From Vicinamibacterales bacterium (GTDB lineage: Bacteria; Acidobacteriota; Vicinamibacteria; Vicinamibacterales; UBA2999): a stretch of DNA of 64,000 bases. The notes under the pieces are model-generated. The model did no database searches, was not told the origin of the DNA, and was given only the letters and a program-made list of their open reading frames with translations. The position numbers were made by a program, and so were the translations under genes. Location of the stretch: positions 22,942 through 86,941 of the forward strand of contig JBFWOG010000005.1 of assembly GCA_050250645.1 (NCBI GenBank), in the 5' to 3' direction. The number at the start of each line of letters is the position of its first letter. Position 1 is the stretch's first letter. This document shows, in pieces, positions 4,849-62,304 of the stretch.

Positions 4849-7083
4849 ATGGCGGCATCTCGGACGACAATCATCCGGATGTTTGCGACCGTTGTCACCG
4901 CCGTTCTGCTCGCTCTCCAGGTTGCCACGCCCCCCGGCACGGCGCCCGCGCACGGGAGGGTCATCGATGTCTCCGGGGCCGCCGTGCCCGCGGCCACCGT
5001 CGTGCTCGTCGACCGGGAGGGCGGCGAACACAGGCCCGCGGTCGCGGGCGACGGCACGTTCGCCATCGCGCCGGGGACGGTCCGCGTCCGCGCCGAGGCG
5101 CCGGGATTCGCCGCCACCGACCGCCAGGTGACCGCGGCGGGCGCCGGCGCGCTCGTGCTGGTGCTGCGCCCCGCGCCGTTCGCCGACGCGCTCGTCGTCA
5201 CGCCGAGCCGCGGCGCCGAGCGGCTGCCCGGCGCCGCGAGCGCCACGATCGTCACGGCCGCGGAGCTCGCCACCACGCCGGCCGGCGCGCTGGACGACGT
5301 CCTCCGCGCGACGCCGGGGTTCAGCCTGTTCCGGCGCGCCTCGTCGCGCGTCGCGAACCCGACGACGCAGGGCGTGACGCTGCGCGGCGTGTCCGGGTCG
5401 GGCGCGAGCCGGACGCTCGTGCTGGCCGACGGCGTGCCGCTCAACGACCCGTTCGGCAGCTGGGTCTACTGGAACCGCGTCCCCTCGGCGGCCATCGACC
5501 GCGTGGAGGTCGTGCGCGGCGCGGCGGGCGACCTCTACGGCGCCGACGCGCTCGGGGGCGTCATCCAGGTGCTGACGCTGTCGCCGTCGCGGCCGCTGCT
5601 GCGGGCGACGGTCGAGGGCGGCTCGCACGGCACGGCGCGCCTGTCGGCCTTCGGCGGCGGCCCCGTCGGCCGCTGGCAGATCGCGGGCTCCGGCGAGTGG
5701 CTCGGCACCGACGGCGTGCCGACCATCGCCCCCGAGGTGGCCGGCCCCATCGACGTCCCGGCCGGCAGCGACTACCGCACGGGATTCGTGTCCGCCGGCG
5801 GGGCCGGCGAGACCTGGCGCGCGGCGGTGCGGCTGAGCGCCTACGACGAAGACCGCCAGAACGGCACGCCCGCCCAGGTGAACTCCACCGCGTGGCGGCA
5901 GGGGAGCGGCGAGTTCGGCGGCCTGGTGGGTGGCGGGGCCTGGGAAGCGCGCCTGAGCGGCGGCAGCCAGGACTACTTCCAGACCTTCAGCGCCGTGGCG
6001 GCCGACCGGGCCTCGGAGCGCCTGACCACGGAGCAGTGGACGCCGAGCGACTTCGTCGCCGGGAGCGGCCAGTGGTCCCGTCCCCTTGGCCGCCACTCCC
6101 TGCTCGTCGGCGCCGAAGCCAGGCGGACCGAGGCGACCGTGACCGAGTACCGCTCGCTGCCGAGCGGCGTCCGCCTCGGGCCGAACGCGTTCGGTGGCAC
6201 CGAGCGCGCCGCCGGCGCGTTCGCCCGCGTGGGGCTCGCGCCGTCGGATCGCCTGACGGTCAACCTTGGCGGCCGCGTCGACACCTGGCACTCGGAGCCG
6301 CTCGACGCCGCGCTGCCGTCGCAGGACCTCTCGTACTTCAGCCCGCGCGCGAGCGCGGCGTACCGGGCGGGTGCCGTCGCCATCCAGGGCGCGGTGTACC
6401 GGTCGTACCGGACGCCGACGCTCAACGAACTCCATCGCGGGTTCCGCGTCGGCAACATCGTCACCAACCCGAACCCCCTGCTCGAGTCCGAGACGCTGAC
6501 CGGCGTCGAGGGCGGCGCGCTCTGGACCGGGCGCCGGGGCTCGGCGCGGGTCACCGGGTTCTGGAACACGCTTGACGGCGCGATCGCCAACATCACGCTG
6601 TCCGTGACGCCCGCGCTCATCACGCGGCAGCGCCAGAACTCCGACGAAATCCGCGCGGCGGGCGTCGAGATCGAGAGCGAGTTCCGTGTGACGGACACGC
6701 TGCGGCTGACAGGCCTCGCCGTCTTCACCTCCAGTCACTTCCGCGGGTCGGTCGCCTCGCCCGAGATCGAGGGCAACCGCGTGCCCCAGGTGCCCCGCGT
6801 GCAGCTTGGCGGGGGGCTCACATGGAGCGACCCCCGGCTGCTCACGGTCGCGGTGCAGGCGCGCGGCACCGGGCAGCAGTTCGACGACGACCAGAACCGT
6901 TTCGCCCTGGGCGCCTACGGCGTCGTCGACCTCATGGTGAGCCGGGCGATCGGGGACTCGGTCCAGGCCTTCGTCTCGGTCGAGAACCTGTTCGACCGCG
7001 ACTACGACACGGCGCGGACGCCGCTCCGGTCCATTGGGTGGCCGAGGTCGGTGCGGGTGGGCGCGCGGGTCGCGCTGCCCTAG
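4849..7083 (+). CDS. TonB-dependent receptor with a carboxypeptidase-regulatory-like N-domain
   Basis: ORF 4138..7083 trimmed to ATG 4849 (alternative 4879). Signal-like N-terminus, GRVIDVSGAAVPAATVVLV domain, and plug segment TLRGVSGSGASRTLVLADGVPLNDPFG. Long beta-barrel-type C-terminal region. Confidence 0.85.
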   Translation: MAASRTTIIRMFATVVTAVLLALQVATPPGTAPAHGRVIDVSGAAVPAATVVLVDREGGEHRPAVAGDGTFAIAPGTVRVRAEAPGFAATDRQVTAAGAGALVLVLRPAPFADALVVTPSRGAERLPGAASATIVTAAELATTPAGALDDVLRATPGFSLFRRASSRVANPTTQGVTLRGVSGSGASRTLVLADGVPLNDPFGSWVYWNRVPSAAIDRVEVVRGAAGDLYGADALGGVIQVLTLSPSRPLLRATVEGGSHGTARLSAFGGGPVGRWQIAGSGEWLGTDGVPTIAPEVAGPIDVPAGSDYRTGFVSAGGAGETWRAAVRLSAYDEDRQNGTPAQVNSTAWRQGSGEFGGLVGGGAWEARLSGGSQDYFQTFSAVAADRASERLTTEQWTPSDFVAGSGQWSRPLGRHSLLVGAEARRTEATVTEYRSLPSGVRLGPNAFGGTERAAGAFARVGLAPSDRLTVNLGGRVDTWHSEPLDAALPSQDLSYFSPRASAAYRAGAVAIQGAVYRSYRTPTLNELHRGFRVGNIVTNPNPLLESETLTGVEGGALWTGRRGSARVTGFWNTLDGAIANITLSVTPALITRQRQNSDEIRAAGVEIESEFRVTDTLRLTGLAVFTSSHFRGSVASPEIEGNRVPQVPRVQLGGGLTWSDPRLLTVAVQARGTGQQFDDDQNRFALGAYGVVDLMVSRAIGDSVQAFVSVENLFDRDYDTARTPLRSIGWPRSVRVGARVALP

Positions 7084-7116
7084 GGCCCCGCGGCGCCGGG
7101 TGCGGCGCGGGCCGCG

Positions 7117-7923
7117 TCACGGCCCGAAGATCCGGCGGGCTGCCGCCAGCGCCCGTCCGAAGTACTCCGGCAGCGGCGCGCTCGTGCACCCGAGCTCGAG
7201 AATGATGGCGCCCGCGTAGCGGACCTCGCGCAGGGTGTGCGTGATCTCGCCCCAGTCGATCGTGCCGTCGCCCGGCGGCAGGTGGTCGTCGAACCGCCCG
7301 TGGTTGTCGGTCGCGTGCACGTGCGCGAGGCGCGGGCCGGCGACGCGCAGGCAGTCGTGCCAGACGTGGCCGAGCGTCGTGTGCCCGGTGTCCAGGCAGA
7401 CGGCGACCGACGGTGGCAGCGTGTCCAGCACGTAGGCGAACTCGTCGGGGTGACCGCCGATGAGGTGGGGCAGGGGCGTCTCGACGGTCAGCGTGAGCTC
7501 GTGGACGGCGAGGGCGCCGGCCAGCTCCTCGAGCGCGCTCCGGCAGTTGGCGAGGCGCCGCGGGACGTCCTGGCCCTCGCGGGGCACGTCGCTCGGGTGC
7601 ACGACGACGTAGCGGCCGCCGACCGTCTCGAGGGCCGTGGCGGCGGTCAGGATGGCGGCGATCGCGCCGCGGCGGTGGTGCGGGTTGTCCGCCGACAGGT
7701 CGAGCAGCCCCCCGAACGGCGCGTGAATCGATGCGGCTGCCATCCCGGCGTCGCGCAGCCGGTCGCGCACGGCGAGCGTCTGCGCGGGGTCCCACGGCGC
7801 GAAGTGCCGGGGCGGCGTCCCGATCTCGACGAGCGGGACGCCGGCCGCGGCGAGGGCGTCGAGCACCTCGAGGATCGGGCGTTCGACGCAGCCGCCCGTG
7901 GCGATCCCGATCGGCCAGCTCAT
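7117..7923 (-). CDS. Xylose-isomerase-like / AP-endonuclease-2 (endonuclease IV fold) TIM-barrel protein
   Basis: ORF 7117..8871 trimmed to ATG 7923 (MSWPIGIATGG...). Superfamily metal-ligand pattern SIHAPF, VVVHPS, TVETPL, CLDTGH, HVHATDNHGRFDDHLPPGDGTIDW, ILELG. The start overlaps the stop of the upstream gene by 4 nt. Confidence 0.75.
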   Translation of the reverse strand: MSWPIGIATGGCVERPILEVLDALAAAGVPLVEIGTPPRHFAPWDPAQTLAVRDRLRDAGMAAASIHAPFGGLLDLSADNPHHRRGAIAAILTAATALETVGGRYVVVHPSDVPREGQDVPRRLANCRSALEELAGALAVHELTLTVETPLPHLIGGHPDEFAYVLDTLPPSVAVCLDTGHTTLGHVWHDCLRVAGPRLAHVHATDNHGRFDDHLPPGDGTIDWGEITHTLREVRYAGAIILELGCTSAPLPEYFGRALAAARRIFGP

Positions 7924-9365
7924 GACGGGTACTGCTCCCGCAGGCGGTCGCGGACCTCGCGGAGGTCGCGCCCGCAGCCTGCGCGCGGACAGAGGCCCTT
8001 CTCCTGGGCCGACACGCAGTTGAGGTCGACCCACCTGTCGAGGCCGGTGGCCACCAGCCCCGCGAACACGCGCACGTCGAAGTCCGCCCGGGTGGCGGCG
8101 TCCATGCGCCGCTCCCAGCGGTCCCCCCAGCCATGGTCGCGGGCATACCGCGACCACACCAGCCCGGCGATGTGGCGCGGGTGCCAGCCCGCCGCCAGCA
8201 GGCCGCGCGTGAGGTGCTGCAGGTGCGCCGGCTGCAGCAGCAGGTCGTTCGGCTGCCTGAGCGCGGCCGACAGGCACGGGGGCCAGTCGGCGACGCCGAC
8301 CAGGTCGTAGGTGTCGGGCCAGCGCTCCGGCGGCTCCGGCGCGACCGCGTAGAAGTCCGCGTGCGCGCGGGCGAGCGCCGACCCTGCGTAGTCGTCCAGC
8401 AGCCGCCCGAGCCCGTCGGCGCAATCGGGGATGTGCGCCTCCTCGCGCGCCGCCGCCGCGGCGCCGGCCGCCGTGCCCCGGCCGCCGGCCACGAGGGCCT
8501 GCCAGTCGTCCCCGTCCCGGCGCGGCAGCGCGACGAGCGGCGGCAGCGTCGCCACGCGCGCGCCGACGATGTCCGGCCTGAGGCGGTGGAACTGGTAGCC
8601 GCCGAACGCGAGGCGGATGTGCCGCGCGTCGAGCGGGTCGCCGGCGAACGACAGGTCGATCGAGACCGCCGCATGGCCGGCCGGGCCGACCTCGCCGACG
8701 ACCGTGCCGTTCACGACGACCGGCACCGTCGACGCGCCGGCAGCGCCCGCGAGCACCAGGTGCGCCGCGTGCTCGAGCACGAGGCCGAGGCCGGTGGCCG
8801 CCCGCGCGACCCGGGCGTCGATGGCGGGCCGCGGAAACGCCACCGCGCGCCGGGACTGGGTCGCGAACCACGCCGGCACGCCGGGGGCCAGCGCGGCGAG
8901 GCGGTCCACGACCGGGGCGCCGAGCGGCACCGCGGCGGTGAAGTGATACCCGCGGCCCGTCATCAGGACGATGGGCTCGAGGCCGAAGCGCTGGAGCACC
9001 GCGCGGGTGGCGCGGTAGGCCGGCTCGAGCTTGAAGAACACGTCACCGGGATGCACGAACGGCTCGCCGGGGTCCGTCGTGTTCTGGTAGTCGAGGTCGA
9101 GGTGCACGAGCAGGCTCGCCGTGTCGTCGAGCGACCGCGCGACGTCGCCGCCGCGGGCGAGGGCGTCGGGCAGGGCGCCCGGCGGGAGGCGGGCGCACCC
9201 GTCCCAGGTCGGGAACCGGCTCGCGCCCGGCTCGAGGACGGCGATCGTCGTGGCCGTGGGCGCCCCATCGGCGCCGGTGTCGAGGTACTCCGCCATGCGC
9301 GCGCGCACGGCGGGCAGGCCGTAGTAGTCGACGAGCGGCATCGGGCCCGCGGACAGGGCAGGCAT
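7920..9365 (-). CDS. Hypothetical protein with AEP (PriS-like) primase-polymerase motifs and a C-terminal PriL-CTD-like Cys module
   Basis: 481 aa. Motif I is LLVHLDLDYQN (D90, D92). Motif II is MTGRGYHFT (G137-H141). Motif III is AAVSIDLSF (D237), followed by HIRLAFGGYQFH. The C-terminal part has DWPPCLSAAL (C364) and NCVSAQEKGLCPRAGC (C450, C459, C464). Motif reading only. Confidence 0.5.
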   Translation of the reverse strand: MPALSAGPMPLVDYYGLPAVRARMAEYLDTGADGAPTATTIAVLEPGASRFPTWDGCARLPPGALPDALARGGDVARSLDDTASLLVHLDLDYQNTTDPGEPFVHPGDVFFKLEPAYRATRAVLQRFGLEPIVLMTGRGYHFTAAVPLGAPVVDRLAALAPGVPAWFATQSRRAVAFPRPAIDARVARAATGLGLVLEHAAHLVLAGAAGASTVPVVVNGTVVGEVGPAGHAAVSIDLSFAGDPLDARHIRLAFGGYQFHRLRPDIVGARVATLPPLVALPRRDGDDWQALVAGGRGTAAGAAAAAREEAHIPDCADGLGRLLDDYAGSALARAHADFYAVAPEPPERWPDTYDLVGVADWPPCLSAALRQPNDLLLQPAHLQHLTRGLLAAGWHPRHIAGLVWSRYARDHGWGDRWERRMDAATRADFDVRVFAGLVATGLDRWVDLNCVSAQEKGLCPRAGCGRDLREVRDRLREQYPS

Positions 9366-9369
9366 GGCG

Positions 9370-9807
9370 CTATGCCTCCCCGGACCGGCCGTCGACGAGC
9401 GCCTGCACGGTGCCGCGCAGCCGGACGTGGCCGGCGAGCCACTTGACCTCGGCGGTGGTGGCGAAGGCGCTGGCCAGGCATGCGTGGGCCGGGACCAGGT
9501 CCGTCCAGGACGCCACCAGCAGCGTCGGCCGCAGGACGAGGATGTCGTGGCCGCCGAGCGGCACGAGCGCGGTCGCCGACACGTAGCCGAGGACCCGGAG
9601 GTCGGCCTCGGCGGCGGTCTCGAGCACGCGGGTCAGGAGCGCCGCGTCGACGGCCGCGGCAAGCAGCGCGAGGGGACTCCACCCCGGCGCGCCCGCGACC
9701 CGGATGGCCGGCGCCTCGTCGGTGAGCAGAGTGCAGGCCTGCCCCTCGTCCCAGACGAGCTCGGTCAGCGGCCGCTGTTCGGACGTGGGCGCCGGGAGTG
9801 CATGCAT
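9370..9807 (-). CDS. OsmC/Ohr-like protein
   Basis: ORF 9370..10350 trimmed to ATG 9807 (MHALPAPTSEQRPL...). OsmC-like segment GWSPLALLAAAVDAALLTRVLE and a second Cys in AHACLASAF. The stop is 4 nt from the next start. Confidence 0.5.
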   Translation of the reverse strand: MHALPAPTSEQRPLTELVWDEGQACTLLTDEAPAIRVAGAPGWSPLALLAAAVDAALLTRVLETAAEADLRVLGYVSATALVPLGGHDILVLRPTLLVASWTDLVPAHACLASAFATTAEVKWLAGHVRLRGTVQALVDGRSGEA

Positions 9808-9980
9808 GCCGCGTCCCCCTCGGGCGGCAAGGTGCAACGGCCGTACCTCGGGCGCGACGCCGAACTGCCCCGGAAGGCGCGCCGGTCGCGGGGGGCGGGG
9901 CGCCCGGCGCGGGGCGCCGCCGGACTTCCGTCGCCGCCTGGCCCCGGGGCCGCGCCTGGCGCGTCCTGGCGCGCCGGGAC

Positions 9981-12108
<2,128 letters not shown>

Positions 12109-57469: not shown

Positions 57470-58038
57470 TGTCAGATCTCGGCGCGCTGCTGCCGCAGGT
57501 CCTCTTCGCGCTCGGCGCGGGATTCCTCGTCGCGAACCTGCTGGTCGCGAAGGACCTGCTGCGGTGGGCCCGCCGGCGGGCCACGGCGGTGCTGGTCTGG
57601 CCGGCGCCGAAGCCCCCCTACTACGGCCTGAGCCTCGCCATCGGGGTGATGCTCGGGTTGCTCATCCTCTTCAAGGCGATCATCCAGCTGCGGCCGCCCA
57701 CCTCGCTCTTCGGGGAGGTGATGATGTTCGTCTACTACGGCTACGCGCTGCCGCTCTCGACCCGCGTCGGCCGGGGGCTGTACGCGGACGGCATCTGGAC
57801 GGACGGCGGCTTCATGCCCTACACGGAGATCGGGGGCCTCAGCTGGCGGGACGAACCCGACCCGACGCTGGTGCTCATCGCCCGCCGCCGCCCCGTGGCG
57901 CGCCGCCTGCGGGTGCCGGGCACGCGCCTCGGCGAGGTGCGCCGCCTGCTCCGCGAAAAGATCTCGAGCCACGACATCGAGTTCGACGGCGGCCCGGGCA
58001 TCCACCTGGGGGAGCGGGATACCAGGGAAAGTGTGTAG
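57469..58038 (+). CDS. Hypothetical membrane protein
   Basis: The tail of ORF 57394..58038 from ATG 57469, which overlaps the tdk TGA by 1 nt. Three hydrophobic helices followed by a soluble tail. Confidence 0.6.
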   Translation: MSDLGALLPQVLFALGAGFLVANLLVAKDLLRWARRRATAVLVWPAPKPPYYGLSLAIGVMLGLLILFKAIIQLRPPTSLFGEVMMFVYYGYALPLSTRVGRGLYADGIWTDGGFMPYTEIGGLSWRDEPDPTLVLIARRRPVARRLRVPGTRLGEVRRLLREKISSHDIEFDGGPGIHLGERDTRESV

Positions 58039-58040
58039 AT

Positions 58041-58176
58041 GAGATTTGGTGATCTCGTGATCTCGTGATCTCGTGATTTGGGATCTTGTGATCTTGTGAT
58101 CTTGTGATTTGCGATCTGGGAATCGCAGCGAACGTCAATCGTCAATCTGCAATCTTCAATCTGCAATCTTCGTGAT
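58041..58176 (+). repeat. Compound tandem octamer array (about 17 units; GTGATCTY-type then CAATCTK-type)
   Basis: gagatttg gtgatctc x3 gtgatttg ggatcttg tgatcttg x2 tgatttgc gatctggg aatcgcag cgaacgtc aatcgtca atctgcaa tcttcaat ctgcaatc ttcgtgat. Begins 3 nt after the stop at 58038 and ends about 45 nt before the ku RBS. Confidence 0.95.
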
Positions 58177-58229
58177 GCGGTCTATTGGGCCGGGCGGTGC
58201 TGTCCGATAGATCGATGACTGGAGGCCTC

Positions 58230-59120
58230 ATGGCTGCGCGACCGACCTGGAAGGGCTACATCAAGGTCAGCCTCGTCACGATTCCGATACGGGTGTATCC
58301 GGCGACGGAGTCGGCGGCCACGATCTCGTTCAACCAGCTCCACGCCGAGTGCCAGACGCGGATCCAGCAGAAGAAGTGGTGCCCGAAGTGCGAGCGCGAG
58401 ATCACCTCGGCCGAGGTGGTCAAGGGCTACGAGTTCGAGAAGGGCCGCTGGGTCGTCGTGAACGAGGAGGACATCGCGAAGGTCCGCGCGGAGTCCACGA
58501 AGGTCATCAACCTGGTGCAGTTCACCGAGGTGGACGCGATCGACCCGATGTACGTCGACAAGGCGTACTACCTGGCGCCCGAGGGGCCGATGGCGGCCGA
58601 CGCGTACGCCGTCATGCGCGAGGGCATGCAGGGCAAGGCGGGCATCGGCAAGCTGGCCATCCACGGCCGCGAGTACCTCGTGGCGGTGAAGCCGCACAAG
58701 CAGGGCCTCGTGATGTACACGCTGCACCACGCCGCCGAGATCCGGACGATCGACCAGATCGACGAGCTGCGCGAGGTGCGCGGCTCGGTGAACCCGGCGG
58801 AGATGAAGCTGGCCCGCCAGGTCATCGAGAGCTACGAGGGCGAGCTCAACCTGGCCGACTACAAGGACGAGTACCAGGCCGGCCTGCGCCAGATCATCGA
58901 CGCCAAGGTCGCGGGCGAGGAGATCGTCGCGCCCGCCGAGGCCGAGCCGCCGAAGGTCGTCGACCTGATGGAAGCCCTGCGCCGGAGCCTCGACCAGGTC
59001 AGCGCGGGCAAGAAGAAGACCGCCAAGGTCGAGGAGCCCGCCGAGGCCAAGGGGAAGCGCGCCTCGTCGAAGACCGCCGCCGCGAAGGGCGCCGGCGGCC
59101 GCAAGCGCAAGGCGTCCTGA
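58230..59120 (+). CDS. ku: Ku protein (bacterial NHEJ DNA-end binding)
   Basis: GGAGG at 58221, then ATG 58230. MAARPTWKGYIKVSLVTIPIRVYPATE...ISFNQLH...VKGYEFEKGRWV...YYLAPE, plus a Lys-rich tail. Confidence 0.9.
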   Translation: MAARPTWKGYIKVSLVTIPIRVYPATESAATISFNQLHAECQTRIQQKKWCPKCEREITSAEVVKGYEFEKGRWVVVNEEDIAKVRAESTKVINLVQFTEVDAIDPMYVDKAYYLAPEGPMAADAYAVMREGMQGKAGIGKLAIHGREYLVAVKPHKQGLVMYTLHHAAEIRTIDQIDELREVRGSVNPAEMKLARQVIESYEGELNLADYKDEYQAGLRQIIDAKVAGEEIVAPAEAEPPKVVDLMEALRRSLDQVSAGKKKTAKVEEPAEAKGKRASSKTAAAKGAGGRKRKAS

Positions 59121-59195
59121 CGTCGCGGAGTGACCGCTGGGGCTCGGCCCGATTCAACGCTGCTTGGCCCAACAGCCGCCTAAGGTACAAGCCGA

Positions 59196-59789
59196 CTAGG
59201 GCCTGCTGGCCATCTGTCGTGCCCGGTATGAGTCAACGCGGCGTTCAACCCGGTCAAGAATCGCCGTGCGGCCCGATTGCTCCAGGCCGACCATGGCCCC
59301 AACCGACGGGCTTGAAGGGGTGAATAGGTCGGGTTGCTTCGTCTTGTACCAGACAAGGCGATGTTCCGCGCACATTAGCTCAACGTGCTCTTCCCTCAAG
59401 ATAGCGGCAGCTTCATCAGCGAAATCAGCGTCGTGCCCTCTATAGACAGAAACATGCGGTTCGAATCCGTATCGTTCGATGGGGAAGGACTTCTTCCACC
59501 AAACTTCCCGAAGGTGAGGGCTGTCCACGCGGAAGAACACGACTTCTTCGCCCGGATTGGAGAAGCGTCCAACGCCAGCGATCCTGAGGACGTCGTACTT
59601 GAGCTTGGCTCGTGCGTCTTCCAGGACCTTGCGAGGGCTGTCGCCTTCGTACGGTCCTCTAAGCGTGACGTGGATTGGTCCTTTGCCGTAATGGCCCGTA
59701 AGAATGTGTCGGACTCTCCACAAGAACGCATTGACCACAGGGTCGGTGAGCTCGAGTAGCAGGAAGTGCACAGCCATGGTGGCGCCCAT
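59196..59789 (-). CDS. 2H phosphoesterase superfamily protein (LigT / cyclic phosphodiesterase-like)
   Basis: Two H-x-T/S-x motifs: GPIHVTLRG and FEPHVSVYRG, about 75 aa apart. Visibly lower GC than the surrounding sequence. The ATG abuts the stop of the upstream reading frame (TAGATG). Confidence 0.6.
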   Translation of the reverse strand: MGATMAVHFLLLELTDPVVNAFLWRVRHILTGHYGKGPIHVTLRGPYEGDSPRKVLEDARAKLKYDVLRIAGVGRFSNPGEEVVFFRVDSPHLREVWWKKSFPIERYGFEPHVSVYRGHDADFADEAAAILREEHVELMCAEHRLVWYKTKQPDLFTPSSPSVGAMVGLEQSGRTAILDRVERRVDSYRARQMASRP

Positions 59790-60172
59790 CTAAAGAACCA
59801 GGTAGCGACGCAGCTCCGGTGCGATCCTTTCGTGGGTCAGCGCCGAGTAGAGAAAGGCTGACAGTGTCTCTGCGTGCTTTCGAACTATGTCCTTGCGCGT
59901 GCCCCCCTCCAGATATTCCTCGACGTTCTCTTCCTCTTTCCATCGCAGGAATTCTTCGTACAAGTCGAGAATTTGTGGCCACTGCCTGAGTATCGAGGCG
60001 TCTGCCAACAGATCCAGGGCGGACGCCAGTCGCTCAAGTGGCGGGCGACTGCAGAGTGCGACCATTGCGTCGGGTGTGTCGATTGGCTCAAGTATGACAG
60101 GTAGGACCGTGCTGAAGACCGTGACCATACGGCTAAACTTGAGATTAACGTTCTTCTTACGCCAAGGCTTAG
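59790..60172 (-). pseudogene. 3-prime fragment of an IS-disrupted nucleotidyltransferase gene
   Basis: Track ORF 59790..60128 (MVTVFSTVLPV...). The frame stays open upstream to the IS boundary and joins in frame with fragment 61497..62206 once the IS and one TSD copy are removed. Confidence 0.7.
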
Positions 60173-61496
60173 TACTACTTTGTCACCTTCGCAGCGGGGC
60201 GTTGCGGCGGAAGCTGTCGAGCATGCCGAGTAGTCGCTGGTTGTGAATGACGTAGAGCAGGCCGAAGATCTCGCGGACCCAGCCGCGCACCACGGGCAAC
60301 GTGGGGCGTGGCGTGTCGTCCCCGCGTCGGCCACGCTCGATCTGGAGGAAGGTGAAGGCCACGGCGGTGAGCACGACGTGGTGAGTCCAGCCGCGGTACG
60401 AGCGTCCCTCGAAGTGGTCGAGGCCGAGGTCATCCTTGAGTTCGCGATACTGCTGCTCGATCGGCCAGCGACTGCGCGCGAGCGTCACGAGGTCGTGCAG
60501 CGTCGCCGTCGGCGGCACATGCAGCAGGTAGTACTTGTGCACATCGGCCGGCGAGCGCTCGCAGAGCAACCAGCGATCGCCGCGCCCCTCGACCGGTCGG
60601 ACGCGGAGCGCACAGAACCGAGCCCCGATCGGCTGCGCCGGATCGGCGCCCCACGTCACGGTCTCCCACGCGCCCGCCGGCGCCGAGGCCGCCAGATCGG
60701 CGGCACTGACCGGCCCGCCCTCCACGTCGACCACCGTGAAGACGAGATCGCCACGAATCGCCACGCCATACGCAAGCCCGAGGCGCTCCAGGCCCTCACG
60801 AAACGCCGCGTTGCGCCCGTAGTCCGCATCGACCACGACGCCGGTGATCGTGAAGCCGGCCTTCAGAATGGTGCGCACCTGGGCCAGGGCGATCTTCCAC
60901 TTCTCGCGAAAGACCACGGTGTCCGGCAGGCCCACCCGCGCGCGCCGATCGGCATCGTCGGTCCACAACGCGGGCAGATACAGGTCGAACGCGAGGGGCC
61001 ACGTGCGACCGTCGGCGATCAGCGCACTCGACACCGCCACCTGGCAGTTGCCGACCTTGCCCAGCGCGCCACAATACTGGCGCTGCACGCCCACCGAATC
61101 CGTCCCCTGCTTGGGGAAGCCCGTGTCGTCGATGGCGAGAATGCCGGCGCGCACCGGGACGGCGGCCCGCAGCTGCGTCCACACGCGCTCGGCCTCCCAG
61201 GGCGAGTCCGTGATGAAGTGCTGCAGCGCTTGGTACTGACCGGGATCACTCAACCGGCCATGCATTGCCTGCATCGACTTCCGCTCGCTGTCGTTCAACA
61301 GGCCGTCGAGGTAGCGACTCGCTGCCTCGCGTTGCGGGCGGCGACTGAAGCACGCGCTGAAGCCGTCGAGGAACCGGCCAAGGCGCTGGAGCAGCGCCCG
61401 TGCAGGCGTCGTCTTCACCCGCGCAGCGTATCGAACCGCGCACGCGAGTACAAGAGGAAACCGTCAGCTCACGCCGACGAAACTGACAAAGTAGTA
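60173..61496 (-). mobile_element. IS701-family-like insertion sequence (1324 bp) with a 4-bp TSD
   Basis: Terminal inverted repeats are TACTACTTTGTCA at 60173..60185 and its reverse complement at 61484..61496, with partial matches further in. Flanking direct repeat TTAG at 60169..60172 and 61497..61500. Single DDE transposase ORF. GC is higher than the flanking island. Confidence 0.85.
60183..61418 (-). CDS. IS701-family DDE transposase
   Basis: 411 aa. RYLDGLL...ERKS, ILAIDDTGFPKQG..SVGVQRQYCGALGKVGNCQV, VVVDADYG, and RWPIEQQYRELKDDLGLDHFEGRSYRGWTHH. Confidence 0.85.
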   Translation of the reverse strand: MKTTPARALLQRLGRFLDGFSACFSRRPQREAASRYLDGLLNDSERKSMQAMHGRLSDPGQYQALQHFITDSPWEAERVWTQLRAAVPVRAGILAIDDTGFPKQGTDSVGVQRQYCGALGKVGNCQVAVSSALIADGRTWPLAFDLYLPALWTDDADRRARVGLPDTVVFREKWKIALAQVRTILKAGFTITGVVVDADYGRNAAFREGLERLGLAYGVAIRGDLVFTVVDVEGGPVSAADLAASAPAGAWETVTWGADPAQPIGARFCALRVRPVEGRGDRWLLCERSPADVHKYYLLHVPPTATLHDLVTLARSRWPIEQQYRELKDDLGLDHFEGRSYRGWTHHVVLTAVAFTFLQIERGRRGDDTPRPTLPVVRGWVREIFGLLYVIHNQRLLGMLDSFRRNAPLRR

Positions 61497-62206
61497 TTAG
61501 TGCGGTCGTGGCGGCGTTCTTCGTAGTTGAGGCAGAGGGTGCGCCAGTATCGAAGAAGATCATTCAGCAGGAACAAAGGTCGGAAGGACTTCTTGCTGCG
61601 ATTGTCTCGGTAGTAATTGTCGGCGACGAGGCGAAGCTGAACGGCAAATCGCTCGGGGTTGAGAAGGGGGGCGCTCTCAAGGACCATCAGCAGTCGAGTG
61701 GTGAACAGGTTGTCGCTGTCGTCGCGAGCCGAGCCTGTTGCTTCAATGAGATCTTTGATTGGGCAGATCTTCAGGAATTGACCGTCGTTGCTGAATTCCG
61801 GAAATCCGAGCGACGAGTTAAGCTGAATTAGCTCAGCGAAGAGCGTGTACTCGCGTAGGCGGCTTGTGTGTGAACGTGCCTCCTCTGATACGACGAATAT
61901 GTCTAGGTCTGAGTGTTCGCCGGCCTCTTGTCGAGCCAACGACCCCGCGCAAAAAATGGAGATCGGCATCGACGAAGCGAGCGTCGTCGTCGCAAGGGCC
62001 GCGGACACCCGCTCCACCTGTTTGGCGGACTCTGAACGGCGTCTCGCAAGGGACTCGTGCTTCGCCAACATCTCTAGGCAGCTGCTCACTAATACCTCGA
62101 AATCAGAGCTTGCCACAGGTCCAACGGCGGCGTCAGCCATTATCGGTTTGGTTGCCGCCGTTCGCTGTCTCTCTTGCGCAGAATGGGCGTTGGCGTACGC
62201 CGGCAT
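61497..62206 (-). pseudogene. 5-prime fragment of an IS-disrupted Pol-beta-superfamily nucleotidyltransferase gene
   Basis: FCAGSLARQEAGEHSDLDIFVV (GS...DxD NTase motif). The last 10 codons and the stop of track ORF 61469..62413 come from the IS end. Start is ATG 62140 (MADAAV) or 62206 (MPAYAN). Confidence 0.7.
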
Positions 62207-62304
62207 CCCGTCCGCCACACCCCGCCCGCCGCCCGGCACTCGGGCCTCCCGGTCCGCCCCGCGCCTCCATACGATGGTCCCATCCAGTGCATCCAGGAGG
62301 TGCC

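What the first reader, a model, noticed from the sequence alone, without database searches (positions are those of the whole stretch)
59196..62206. Lower-GC island with a Pol-beta nucleotidyltransferase gene abutting a 2H phosphoesterase gene
The stretch between ku and the DinB-family gene is visibly poorer in G+C than the rest of the window, apart from the IS inside it. That suggests horizontal acquisition.

It encodes a nucleotidyltransferase with the GS-x9-SDLD motif (FCAGSLARQEAGEHSDLDIFVV, GlnD/MNT-like) and a helical C-terminal region. Its stop directly abuts the ATG of the next gene (TAGATG). That gene has two HxT/S motifs (IHVTLRG, PHVSVYRG), the hallmark of 2H phosphoesterases (LigT, 2-prime,3-prime or 2-prime,5-prime phosphodiesterases).

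An NTase paired with a 2H enzyme has the logic of a nucleotide-signal synthase plus degrader, as in OAS with a 2-5A phosphodiesterase. It could equally be an RNA end-healing and tailing repair pair. Either would fit a conflict or defence island. I do not recognise this exact two-gene cassette as a named system.
Basis: partly seen in the sequence, partly recalled or inferred. Interest (0 to 1): 0.65.

Follow-up and report, generated by a model that had tools for sequence, protein, structure and literature searches.

The report
IS-broken nucleotidyltransferase–2H phosphoesterase cassette
A small piece of foreign DNA between ku and a DinB-like gene carries a conserved, mobile two-gene unit, a nucleotide-adding enzyme plus a phosphodiesterase that probably removes what it adds; its function is untested, and in this copy an insertion sequence has split the first gene.

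Summary
A 1.7-kb cassette with 57% G+C (genome 72%; GC3 0.66 against 0.96 in the flanks) lies between ku and a DinB_2 gene. A same-genus relative has only 103 bp at this site.

The cassette encodes a Pol-beta nucleotidyltransferase (NTase). Its TAG stop abuts the ATG of an intact 2H phosphoesterase gene. An IS701-family element with a TTAG target duplication splits the NTase; the two flanks rejoin in frame.

The pair is a real unit:
- 59 of 80 genome loci with an NTase relative carry this 2H gene directly downstream.
- The two proteins co-diverge (Mantel r 0.80).
- Both HxT/S motifs and the NTase GS...DxD residues are essentially invariant.

An intact homologue of the NTase folds like the protein adenylyltransferases DrrA and GlnE, not like OAS, CD-NTases or CCA enzymes. 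In sister clades the 2H partner is replaced by a 2H-SAK domain, a DEDDh exonuclease (once fused to the NTase) or PADLOC's candidate PDC-M70B, which resembles the phosphodiesterase CbiR. One relative is fused to a TIR domain. No third gene is conserved.

Best reading: an undescribed nucleotidyl "writer–eraser" conflict module of toxin–antidote type, dead in this genome. RNA-end repair and signal synthase/degrader readings are not excluded. No biochemistry exists for any member.

The parts
59150..62200 (.). Horizontally acquired island: the 1.7-kb two-gene cassette plus a 1.33-kb IS. The boundaries are approximate.
   Evidence: G+C is 0.57 against 0.72 for the genome. Same-genus genome G311 has ku, then 103 bp, then the DinB-like gene, where the window has about 3.17 kb (59128-62292).
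59196..59789 (-). 2H phosphoesterase gene, intact, 197 aa (P0002). Motifs H40-V-T42 and H112-V-S114. It carries a C-terminal two-helix extension.
   Evidence: Pfam PF13563 scores 29.9 bits against a cut-off of 27. The AF2 model has pLDDT 87. Fold matches are plant CPDase 1fsi (TM 0.55/0.61), YjcG, LigT and a phage phosphodiesterase, 9q2y. Motif conservation was checked.
59790..60172 (-). 3' fragment of the NTase gene (the C-terminal helical domain, ...KPWRKKNVNLKFSRMVTVF... to the TAG stop). It includes one copy of the target-site duplication.
   Evidence: Translation. It aligns without gaps to residues ~200-324 of intact homologues. PADLOC PDC-M70A positions 256-311 match at E 0.0048.
60173..61496 (-). 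IS701-family insertion sequence, 1,324 bp, single copy in this assembly. The transposase ORF is 60183-61418. Terminal inverted repeats are at 60173-60185 and 61484-61496.
   Evidence: NF033540 scores 366 bits against a cut-off of 150; Pfam DDE_5 matches at E 5.5e-61. Inverted-repeat pair I2. Junctions. There is a single BLAST hit in the genome.
60169..60172 (.). Target-site duplication, left copy (TTAG on the + strand).
61497..61500 (.). Target-site duplication, right copy (TTAG on the + strand).
   Evidence: Joining the flanks with one TTAG copy reads ...H D R T K P W R K K N..., matching homologues (HDPTKPWRKKN).
61497..62140 (-). 5' fragment of the NTase gene (catalytic Pol-beta domain; G-S-x9-S-D-L-D, which is the G-x11-D-x-D pattern). 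As it stands, the reading frame runs on into the IS and stops at 61469.
   Evidence: NTP_transf_2 27.5 bits; weak hits to Polbeta, SidM_N and DUF294. PDC-M70A E 7.8e-23. All family-invariant residues are present.

Best explanation
This is an IS-inactivated copy of a horizontally mobile two-gene cassette.

Gene 1 encodes a two-domain Pol-beta nucleotidyltransferase; an intact homologue folds like DrrA and GlnE. By inference, it transfers a nucleoside monophosphate from an NTP onto a hydroxyl group of a cellular macromolecule. The most likely target is the 3' end of an RNA such as tRNA. A protein Tyr/Ser/Thr is the alternative.

Gene 2 is translationally coupled to gene 1 and encodes a catalytically intact 2H phosphoesterase. 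By inference, it cleaves that newly made phosphodiester. The pair would then be a writer and an eraser that keep each other in balance, in the way enzymatic toxin–antidote and abortive-infection modules do.

In this genome an IS701-family element has cut the writer gene between its catalytic part and its C-terminal helical domain, so only the eraser gene is whole and the module is most likely dead.

Shown: the anatomy, the foreign origin, the conservation of the pair, the folds, the conserved catalytic residues, and the partner swapping.

Inferred: the substrate, the opposing activities, and the toxin–antidote or defence role.

My odds: conserved mobile cassette, IS-broken, about 0.97. The eraser reverses the writer's product, about 0.55. 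Toxin–antidote or defence role, about 0.4.
For: Anatomy:
- The IS has perfect 13-bp terminal repeats and a TTAG duplication, and the flanks rejoin in frame.
- All family-invariant NTase residues are still present in both fragments.

Foreign origin:
- G+C and GC3 are far below the genome's.
- A same-genus relative has an empty site.
- The pair is in 2 of 301 genomes sampled from the phylum, and in both the two genes are adjacent.

The pair is a unit:
- 59 of 80 genome loci carry the family 2H gene directly downstream, mostly with a gap of -3 to +20 nt.
- The same holds in metagenome contigs.
- Mantel r is 0.80, with 0 of 999 permutations reaching it.
- No third gene is conserved.

Both enzymes look active:
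- 2H motifs are kept in 58-59 of 59 sequences.
- NTase G50, S51 and D62 are kept in all 73 aligned rows and D64 in 71, with about 15 further residues invariant or nearly so across clades.

Folds:
- The NTase model (intact homologue P0050, pLDDT 92.8) best matches DrrA 6yx5 (TM 0.54/0.52) and GlnE 1v4a. The family profile hits DrrA at E 4.5e-4.
- The 2H model matches CPDase, YjcG and LigT.

Partners are interchangeable phosphodiesterases:
- 2H-SAK in L029.
- DEDDh exonuclease in 18 loci, and fused to the NTase in P0269.
- PDC-M70B, weakly CbiR-like, directly downstream of the NTase in 3 of the 4 complete loci examined.
- HD plus HAD, HIT, and histidine phosphatase next to more distant relatives.

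Conflict flavour:
- The sister clade is the PADLOC candidate PDC-M70.
- One relative is a TIR–NTase fusion.
- Some copies lie on an ICE-like contig or beside restriction-modification genes, AAA_21, SoFic, MADS, AriA or HNH genes.

Decay is one-sided:
- The NTase is broken while the 2H gene is intact in 7 loci plus this window.
- The 2H gene is never broken alone.
- Both are broken in one locus.
- Given the gene lengths, P is about 0.02.
Against: - No biochemical or genetic data exist for any member.
- Many copies sit among housekeeping genes, and I ran no control for defence-gene enrichment.
- The family was not found in 50,697 phage records or in IMG/VR, and is rare on plasmids.
- The DEDDh clade has a conserved chromosomal context in Acidobacteriaceae and Solirubrobacterales, which looks vertical rather than mobile.
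- A few intact NTases have no phosphodiesterase partner: L079, the TIR fusion, and a 4.5-kb E. coli plasmid. The NTase is therefore not necessarily lethal on its own.
- A DrrA/GlnE-like fold suggests a protein target. The Tyr-O-5'-AMP link that would result is not a typical 2H substrate.
- Some of the broken NTases are in long-read MAGs, where frameshifts can be sequencing errors.
- An exonuclease–NTase fusion also fits two enzymes that cooperate.
Confidence: 0.5

Rival explanations
1. RNA 3'-end heal-and-tail repair. The 2H enzyme (or the exonuclease or TIM-barrel diesterase in sister clades) removes a 2',3'-cyclic phosphate or damaged 3' nucleotides left by ribotoxins. The NTase then rebuilds the end. 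The two enzymes would cooperate in sequence, as the HD and NTase domains of bacterial CCA-adding enzyme do (from my own knowledge).
For: - The closest solved 2H folds are cyclic phosphodiesterases: Arabidopsis CPDase, YjcG, LigT.
- One partner is a 2H-SAK domain (PF22547). From memory, this domain was described in an RNA-repair protein; I could not check the paper.
- Every partner type can process 3' ends.
- The exonuclease–NTase fusion P0269 and the vertically conserved DEDDh clade fit a cooperative, housekeeping-like enzyme pair.
Against: - No RNA ligase, RtcB, Pnkp/Hen1 or kinase gene recurs nearby, and no third gene is conserved.
- The NTase is not CCA/PAP-like by sequence or fold.
- A 2H cyclic phosphodiesterase leaves a 2'- or 3'-phosphate that still needs a phosphatase.
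- Decay biased towards the NTase is not predicted.
Confidence: 0.2
2. Nucleotide-signal synthase plus degrader, the first reader's OAS/2-5A-phosphodiesterase logic. The NTase makes a linear or cyclic oligonucleotide messenger and the 2H enzyme resets it.
For: - The DEDDh partners match the PADLOC model labelled 'Effector / Exonuclease' at E 1e-37 to 1e-46. From its label and accession range I take this to be a CBASS-associated model, but the output does not say so.
- 2H enzymes such as Acb1 degrade cyclic oligonucleotides, and Acb1 appears among the viral fold matches.
- The TIR–NTase fusion recalls nucleotide-signalling immunity.
- There are weak PADLOC 'Cyclase' and HalB hits.
Against: - No conserved sensor or effector gene accompanies the pair.
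- CD-NTase, SMODS and OAS similarity is only at noise level (E 0.009-0.09).
- The best fold matches are the protein adenylyltransferases DrrA and GlnE.
- A constitutively co-translated degrader would quench its own signal.
Confidence: 0.1
3. Type VII-like toxin–antitoxin system with the roles reversed. The phosphoesterase or nuclease is the toxin. The NTase is the antitoxin and neutralises it by nucleotidylating it, as MntA does to HepT.
For: - The gene order, NTase first, matches the usual antitoxin–toxin order.
- The NTase folds like protein AMPylators, and MntA structures appear among the weaker matches.
- The partners (2H, DEDDh, AP-endonuclease-like) are all potential nucleases.
Against: - The NTase is the gene that decays while the partner stays intact: 8 cases against 0. 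This window is one of them. That would be lethal if the partner were an active toxin.
- The NTase is about three times larger than MntA and has its own conserved helical substrate domain.
Confidence: 0.08
4. Regulatory protein-nucleotidylation cycle of the GlnD/GlnE or DrrA–SidD type. It would act on a host protein and have no role in conflict.
For: - DrrA and GlnE are the best structural and profile matches.
- There are weak GlnD hits.
- Writer plus hydrolase architectures, and fusions of the two, are typical of such cycles.
- HD- and HIT-type partners occur in distant relatives.
Against: - The distribution is patchy and horizontal, and the unit is a minimal 1.7-kb cassette with no sensor domain and no fixed neighbour.
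- By known chemistry, 2H enzymes need a vicinal ribose hydroxyl. They are not expected to cleave Tyr-O-5'-NMP.
Confidence: 0.1

Closest known systems
PADLOC phage-defence candidate PDC-M70 (A + B), untested
   Same: The NTase hits model PDC-M70A with both fragments (E 7.8e-23 and 0.0048) and with intact homologues (E 4.9e-34). True PDC-M70 loci have the same layout: an NTase of about 370 aa followed directly by a small partner gene. They also share the invariant NTase residues.
   Different: The partner here is a 2H phosphoesterase. It does not match PDC-M70B, which is absent from this genome. PDC-M70B has no Pfam family and only a weak hit to the phosphodiesterase CbiR. The scores to model A (79-116 bits over 355 positions) indicate a sister clade, not membership.
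Enzymatic writer–eraser toxin–antitoxin pairs (DarT–DarG; toxSAS FaRel–SAH); NTase toxins MenT/AbiEii
   Same: The logic is the same: a nucleotide-transferring enzyme paired with a hydrolase that can reverse the modification. These are also two-gene, horizontally mobile, translationally coupled units. This comparison rests on my own knowledge of those systems.
   Different: The folds are unrelated. There is no DUF1814, ART or RSH domain here. Neither toxicity nor reversal has been shown. A 2H antidote has not been described in the papers I could search.
DrrA/SidM AMPylation domain and GlnE/GlnD nucleotidyltransferases
   Same: The G-x11-D-x-D motif is shared. The two-domain NTase-plus-helical fold of an intact homologue matches over its whole length (6yx5_B TM 0.54/0.52; 1v4a TM 0.48). 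The family profile hits DrrA at E 4.5e-4.
   Different: Identity is only 12-16%. There is no Pfam GlnE or GlnD_UR_UTase domain match. No protein substrate is known. The eraser is a separate 2H gene, not an HD domain, a second NTase domain or a SidD-type phosphatase.
Eukaryotic RNA tail writers and erasers (TUT1 or PAPD5 against the 2H exoribonuclease USB1 and the DEDDh deadenylase PARN)
   Same: In both cases an NTase is opposed by either a 2H enzyme or a DEDDh exonuclease. Those are the two commonest partner types found here. The eukaryotic facts are from my own knowledge.
   Different: This is an analogy only. There is no detectable homology beyond the superfamily folds, and no evidence that RNA is the acceptor.

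Membership tests
Pol-beta nucleotidyltransferase superfamily | hG[GS] motif, then [DE]x[DE] about 10-13 residues later, on the NTase alpha/beta core | tested here: met
   GS-x9-S-D-L-D is present. PF01909 scores above its gathering cut-off. G50, S51 and D62 are kept in all 73 aligned rows and D64 in 71. The AF2 core fold of an intact homologue matches NTases.
GlnE/GlnD/DrrA-type protein nucleotidyltransferases | G-x11-[DE]-x-[DE] motif plus a two-domain NTase-and-helical fold | tested here: met
   The motif spacing is exact. The best PDB matches of the homologue model are DrrA (TM 0.54/0.52) and GlnE (TM 0.48). The profile hits DrrA at E 4.5e-4.
GlnE/GlnD/DrrA-type protein nucleotidyltransferases | Match to the family-specific domain models (GlnE, GlnD_UR_UTase, DUF294_C) and a protein Tyr acceptor | tested here: not met
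   There are only sub-threshold hits: SidM_N 19.9 bits against a cut-off of 27, DUF294 19.7 against 21, and GlnD equivalog 19 bits against 631. The acceptor cannot be tested with these tools.
CD-NTase / SMODS / OAS signal synthases | Sequence or fold match to cGAS/DncV-like or OAS enzymes | tested here: not met
   PADLOC Cyclase models match only at E 0.009-0.05. CdnE 7x4f matches at E 0.088. None is among the top fold matches.
MenT/AbiEii (DUF1814) NTase toxins | Match to PF08843 / AbiEii models | tested here: not met
   No such hit in Pfam, NCBIfam or PADLOC.
2H phosphoesterase superfamily | Two HxT/S motifs on a two-lobed beta fold | tested here: met
   H40xT42 and H112xS114 are present and conserved in 58-59 of 59 sequences. 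PF13563 scores above its cut-off. Fold matches are CPDase, YjcG, LigT and CNPase.
PADLOC PDC-M70 system | Both PDC-M70A and PDC-M70B present and adjacent | tested here: not met
   A matches. B is absent from the genome, and the 2H protein hits no PADLOC model.
IS701 family insertion sequence | IS701-type DDE transposase, terminal inverted repeats, short target duplication | tested here: met
   NF033540 scores 366 bits against a cut-off of 150. The terminal inverted repeats are 13 bp and perfect, and the duplication is the 4-bp TTAG.
Toxin–antitoxin / abortive-infection module | One product is toxic and the cognate partner neutralises it; or a phage-defence phenotype | not testable with these tools
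   There are only indirect signs: decay biased towards the NTase, a patchy mobile distribution and some defence-gene neighbours.

The most novel reading that the evidence does not exclude
DrrA/GlnE-fold nucleotidyltransferases of this family would be the common core of a broad, modular and so far undescribed class of bacterial conflict systems. The NTase would poison the cell or an invading phage by adding nucleotides to RNA 3' ends or to a protein. A co-translated catalytic phosphodiesterase would act as the antidote by erasing the mark. That phosphodiesterase can be a 2H enzyme, 2H-SAK, a DEDDh exonuclease or a CbiR-like TIM-barrel enzyme. This would be the first 2H-phosphoesterase antitoxin, and it would give the PADLOC candidate PDC-M70 a mechanism.
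Probability: 0.3. Interest if true: 0.8.

Novelty: new variant of a known kind. Interest (0 to 1): 0.6.

Why it matters
If the writer–eraser reading is right, this family adds a new enzymatic toxin–antidote or defence architecture. A DrrA/GlnE-like NTase would be held in check by interchangeable phosphodiesterases. It would also explain an untested PADLOC candidate system, PDC-M70.

The family is compact, at about 1,950 clusters at 50% identity among 1.84 billion representative proteins. It is found across Acidobacteriota, Pseudomonadota, Bacteroidota, Campylobacterota, Actinomycetota and a candidate-phyla-radiation lineage (MAG labelled Candidatus Nomurabacteria). Cultured isolates carry intact copies, so it can be tested directly.

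The copy in this window is of limited interest in itself, because it is a recently IS-killed remnant. It does give a clean natural example of the writer gene being lost while the eraser gene stays whole.

Tried and rejected
- Third component. I looked for a conserved third gene (sensor, effector or regulator) by clustering neighbours across 80 loci. None was found.
- Phage carriage. There was no hit in 50,697 phage records or in IMG/VR.
- Plasmids. Only 5 distant hits, with different partners.
- Literature. Searches for PDC-M70, BCSR5, DUF294 with exonuclease, 2H with NTase and defence, and NTase toxin with phosphodiesterase found nothing on this pair. Three attempts to open the comparative-genomics papers on RNA repair and nucleotide-centred conflict systems failed because they are not held. 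A prior description there cannot be excluded.
- Local signals. Rfam and the promoter/terminator scans of the island gave nothing above chance.
- 2H classification. The 2H family profile found no solved structure by sequence. The viral fold search gave only generic 2H matches and did not separate Acb1-like from LigT/CPDase-like.
- PDC-M70B has no Pfam or PDB sequence match. Only a weak CbiR hit was found.
- The IS as a passenger. I rejected the idea that the IS arrived with the island. Its G+C and GC3 differ from the island's, and it has its own target duplication inside the NTase reading frame.
- Repaired protein. I did not build a repaired NTase protein. The fragments were searched separately, and the flanks were joined only to show the empty site.

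Full report
**Observation**

On the minus strand the region reads, in order:
- an NTase 5' fragment at 62140-61497, which carries FCAGSLARQEAGEHSDLDIFVV;
- an insertion sequence;
- the NTase 3' fragment at 60172-59790;
- directly after its TAG stop, the ATG of a 197-aa gene that carries IHVTLRG and PHVSVYRG.

Pfam places the two proteins in NTP_transf_2 (27.5 bits, cut-off 21) and 2_5_RNA_ligase2 (29.9 bits, cut-off 27).

The composition claim is statistically sound. Without the IS, the island has 0.570 G+C against 0.719 for the 5.2-Mb genome. Only 0.08% of 10,278 genome windows of the same length are as low. GC3 is 0.66-0.67 against 0.96-0.98 in ku, tdk and the DinB-like gene. The right-hand neighbour is indeed a DinB_2 protein.

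**The insertion**

The element at 60173-61496 encodes an IS701-family DDE transposase (NF033540, 366 bits against a cut-off of 150; DDE_5 at E 5.5e-61). It has perfect 13-bp terminal inverted repeats and is flanked by a 4-bp TTAG duplication. It is single-copy in this assembly.

Joining the flanks with one TTAG copy gives ...HDRTKPWRKKN... Intact homologues read HDPTKPWRKKN at this position. The two fragments align to homologues end to end with every family-invariant residue in place. The gene was therefore intact until a recent insertion. As it stands, it encodes the first 214 residues, including the catalytic domain, plus a nine-residue tail read from the IS, and it lacks the last ~110 residues of the helical domain.

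Alignment with homologues also favours the ATG at 62140 as the start, not 62206.

**Foreign origin**

A same-genus genome (Ku 94% identical) has ku, then 103 bp, then the DinB-like gene. The window has about 3.17 kb there. More distant family members lack the island too.

The transferred unit is little more than the two genes. I saw no integrase or flanking repeats.

In a sample of 301 genomes from the phylum, the 2H family occurs in only two, this genome and one other. In both it lies next to the NTase. The window's proteins are only about 42-60% identical to those of other Vicinamibacterales carriers, so this lineage acquired its copy separately.

**What the proteins are**

An AlphaFold2 model of an intact homologue, P0050 (pLDDT 92.8), is a two-domain protein: an NTase core followed by a helical bundle. 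Its best solved matches over the full length are two protein adenylyltransferases, the AMPylation domain of Legionella DrrA (TM 0.54/0.52) and the N-terminal domain of GlnE (TM 0.48). Aminoglycoside nucleotidyltransferases, HalB, MntA and Cid1 follow at much lower scores. The family profile also finds DrrA by sequence (E 4.5e-4). The motif spacing is the G-x11-D-x-D of that group.

The NTase is not CD-NTase-, OAS-, CCA- or DUF1814-like by any test run.

The 2H model (pLDDT 87) matches Arabidopsis cyclic phosphodiesterase (TM 0.55/0.61), YjcG, LigT, CNPase and a phage phosphodiesterase. Viral matches are generic 2H proteins, among them Acb1.

**The pair is a unit**

- Of the 80 genome loci kept from the scan with the NTase profile, 59 have this 2H family directly downstream. 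The gap is mostly -3 to +20 nt and often the genes overlap by 4 nt.
- Metagenome contigs show the same layout.
- Pairwise identities of the two proteins across 53 loci correlate strongly (Mantel r 0.80; 0 of 999 permutations reached it).
- The catalytic His and Thr/Ser residues of the 2H protein are kept in 58-59 of 59 sequences. The NTase GS...DxD residues are kept in 71-73 of the 73 aligned rows, and about 15 further residues are invariant or nearly so.
- Clustering of neighbouring genes finds no third conserved gene.

**Partner swapping**

This is the most informative result. Where the family 2H gene is missing, the NTase has another nucleotide phosphoesterase beside it:

| Partner | Where |
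|---|---|
| 2H-SAK domain protein | Duganella (L029) |
| DEDDh 3'-5' exonuclease, immediately upstream or divergent | 18 loci (Acidobacteriaceae, Solirubrobacterales, Kofleriaceae) |
| DEDDh exonuclease fused to the NTase in one polypeptide | P0269 (52% identity to the stand-alone exonuclease) |
| PDC-M70B, 236 aa; its only family hit is weak, to the cobamide phosphodiesterase CbiR (E 3.9e-7, below cut-off) | PADLOC candidate clade PDC-M70; directly downstream of the NTase in 3 of the 4 complete loci examined |
| HD plus HAD, HIT, or histidine phosphatase | more distant relatives |

Only 2 of the 80 loci have no partner, and both lie next to IS-like sequence. One relative is a TIR–NTase fusion with no phosphodiesterase partner.

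The NTase residues conserved across these clades are the same. The same chemistry is therefore being paired with functionally equivalent hydrolases of at least four unrelated folds.

**Context**

The neighbourhoods are mixed.
- One copy lies on an ICE-like contig with a coupling protein, a relaxase and PIN proteins.
- One lies beside a ResIII helicase, a methyltransferase and an AAA_21 protein.
- Among 148 neighbouring genes there are hits to HNH, SoFic, MADS, AriA, type I restriction-modification, a CBASS E1-E2 model, and NERD+UvrD. There are also gyrB, SHMT, ThiC and ABC transporter genes.

I ran no matched control, so I claim only that the cassette is sometimes, not always, in defence or mobile neighbourhoods. 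No phage record or IMG/VR contig carries it.

**Decay pattern**

The NTase is frameshifted or truncated while the 2H gene is whole in seven loci and in this window. The 2H gene is never broken alone. Both are broken in one locus. Given the gene lengths, eight out of eight has P of about 0.02.

Two caveats apply. Several of these loci are from long-read MAGs, where frameshifts can be errors, and some of the genomes are related to each other.

**Mechanism**

The shown facts are:
- a catalytically competent NTase;
- a catalytically competent phosphodiesterase;
- obligatory coupling of the two;
- interchangeable hydrolase partners;
- no other component.

The simplest inference is a writer–eraser pair in which the hydrolase cleaves the phosphodiester that the NTase makes.

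DEDDh exonucleases remove 3'-terminal nucleotides, and 2H enzymes need a vicinal ribose hydroxyl. USB1, for example, trims RNA tails; this is from my own knowledge. The acceptor these partners would most economically share is therefore the 3' end of an RNA or an oligonucleotide. The DrrA/GlnE-like fold keeps a protein hydroxyl in play.

Several features favour a toxin–antidote or defence role over housekeeping:
- the patchy, horizontal distribution;
- the minimal size of the cassette;
- the PDC-M70 sister clade;
- the TIR fusion;
- the one-sided decay.

Three other observations warn that not all clades need behave alike:
- the vertically conserved DEDDh clade;
- the exonuclease–NTase fusion;
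- the partnerless intact NTases.

My odds are about 0.55 that the eraser reverses the writer's product, and about 0.4 that the module is a toxin–antidote or defence system. Rival readings are RNA-end repair (0.2), a signal synthase with its degrader (0.1), a regulatory protein-nucleotidylation cycle (0.1), and a type VII-like system with reversed roles (0.08, disfavoured by the decay pattern).

**Comparison and novelty**

The nearest catalogued entity is the untested PADLOC candidate PDC-M70. This cassette is not a member, because the B component is absent. In logic it resembles the enzymatic toxin–antitoxin pairs DarT–DarG and toxSAS–SAH, and the eukaryotic pairing of RNA tail writers with USB1 or PARN. 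It shares no family with either.

I found no paper on this pair. An earlier agent of this scan reached a similar reading for the same family in another genome; I treat that as a lead, not as support.

I class the finding as a new variant of a known kind. The copy in this window is a dead remnant. The family is what is of interest.

**Limits**

- No experiment exists for any member.
- Substrate, toxicity and defence are inferences.
- Defence enrichment was not controlled.
- The classification of PDC-M70B rests on one weak hit.

Noticed in passing
L058, L060, L061, L063, L065, L070, L073 (about 7000-11200 in each): In Solirubrobacterales the NTase–DEDDh pair always sits convergent to a HerA-like ATPase of about 725 aa (PF01935; PADLOC HerA and mad8 hits). 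A gene called at about 380-640 aa follows in six of the seven loci. This may be a conserved defence locus next to the pair.
   Followed up: partly
L116 2999-4483 (protein P0260): A TIR domain (PF01582, PF13676) is fused N-terminally to a full-length NTase of this family. No phosphodiesterase gene lies downstream. The two upstream genes have no Pfam family.
   Followed up: partly
L117 1012-2658 (protein P0269): A single 548-aa protein fuses the DEDDh exonuclease (52% identical to the stand-alone partner) to the NTase.
   Followed up: partly
L114 4987-7127 (genome G066): In the only other carrier in the phylum sample, an NT5C-type 5'-(deoxy)nucleotidase gene overlaps the NTase start. This gives an apparent three-gene operon: NT5C, NTase, 2H.
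   Followed up: no
L094 (E. coli plasmid NZ_CP092257.1, 4,499 bp): A small Rop-bearing plasmid whose only sizeable genes are a distant NTase of this superfamily (331 aa) and an upstream 157-aa ORF with no family. No phosphodiesterase partner is present.
   Followed up: partly
L029 3511-5649 (-) and 6939-7394 (+): In Duganella radicis the NTase is followed by a 2H-SAK protein. On the other side lies a divergent Eco57I-type methyltransferase (PADLOC MTase_II, E 1.6e-112). Its N-terminus gives a weak hit (21 bits) to the 2H profile and contains KPHITVRY.
   Followed up: no
L079 4767-5529 and 7385-8147: An intact, partnerless NTase is bracketed by identical inverted copies of the same ORFs, which looks like a composite transposon.
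   Followed up: no
proteins P0074 / P0095: P0074 (370 aa) carries an internal tandem duplication of about 40 residues (NLFTTRMLLILES...YYRDQGST) inside the NTase. P0095 is otherwise identical in the alignment and lacks it.
   Followed up: no
L064, L080, L084, L085 (just downstream of the NTase, opposite strand): In Acidobacteriaceae a minimal-nucleotidyltransferase-like (MNT-type) ORF of about 96 aa, containing GxxxxGxxxxDSDLDxLV, lies convergent to the NTase–exonuclease pair.
   Followed up: no
window 57800-58400: There is a second G+C dip (0.56-0.63) just upstream of ku. It coincides with short tandem repeats that translate as ITRSRDHQ-like units in several frames. Earlier notes of this scan already describe this octamer array.
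   Followed up: no
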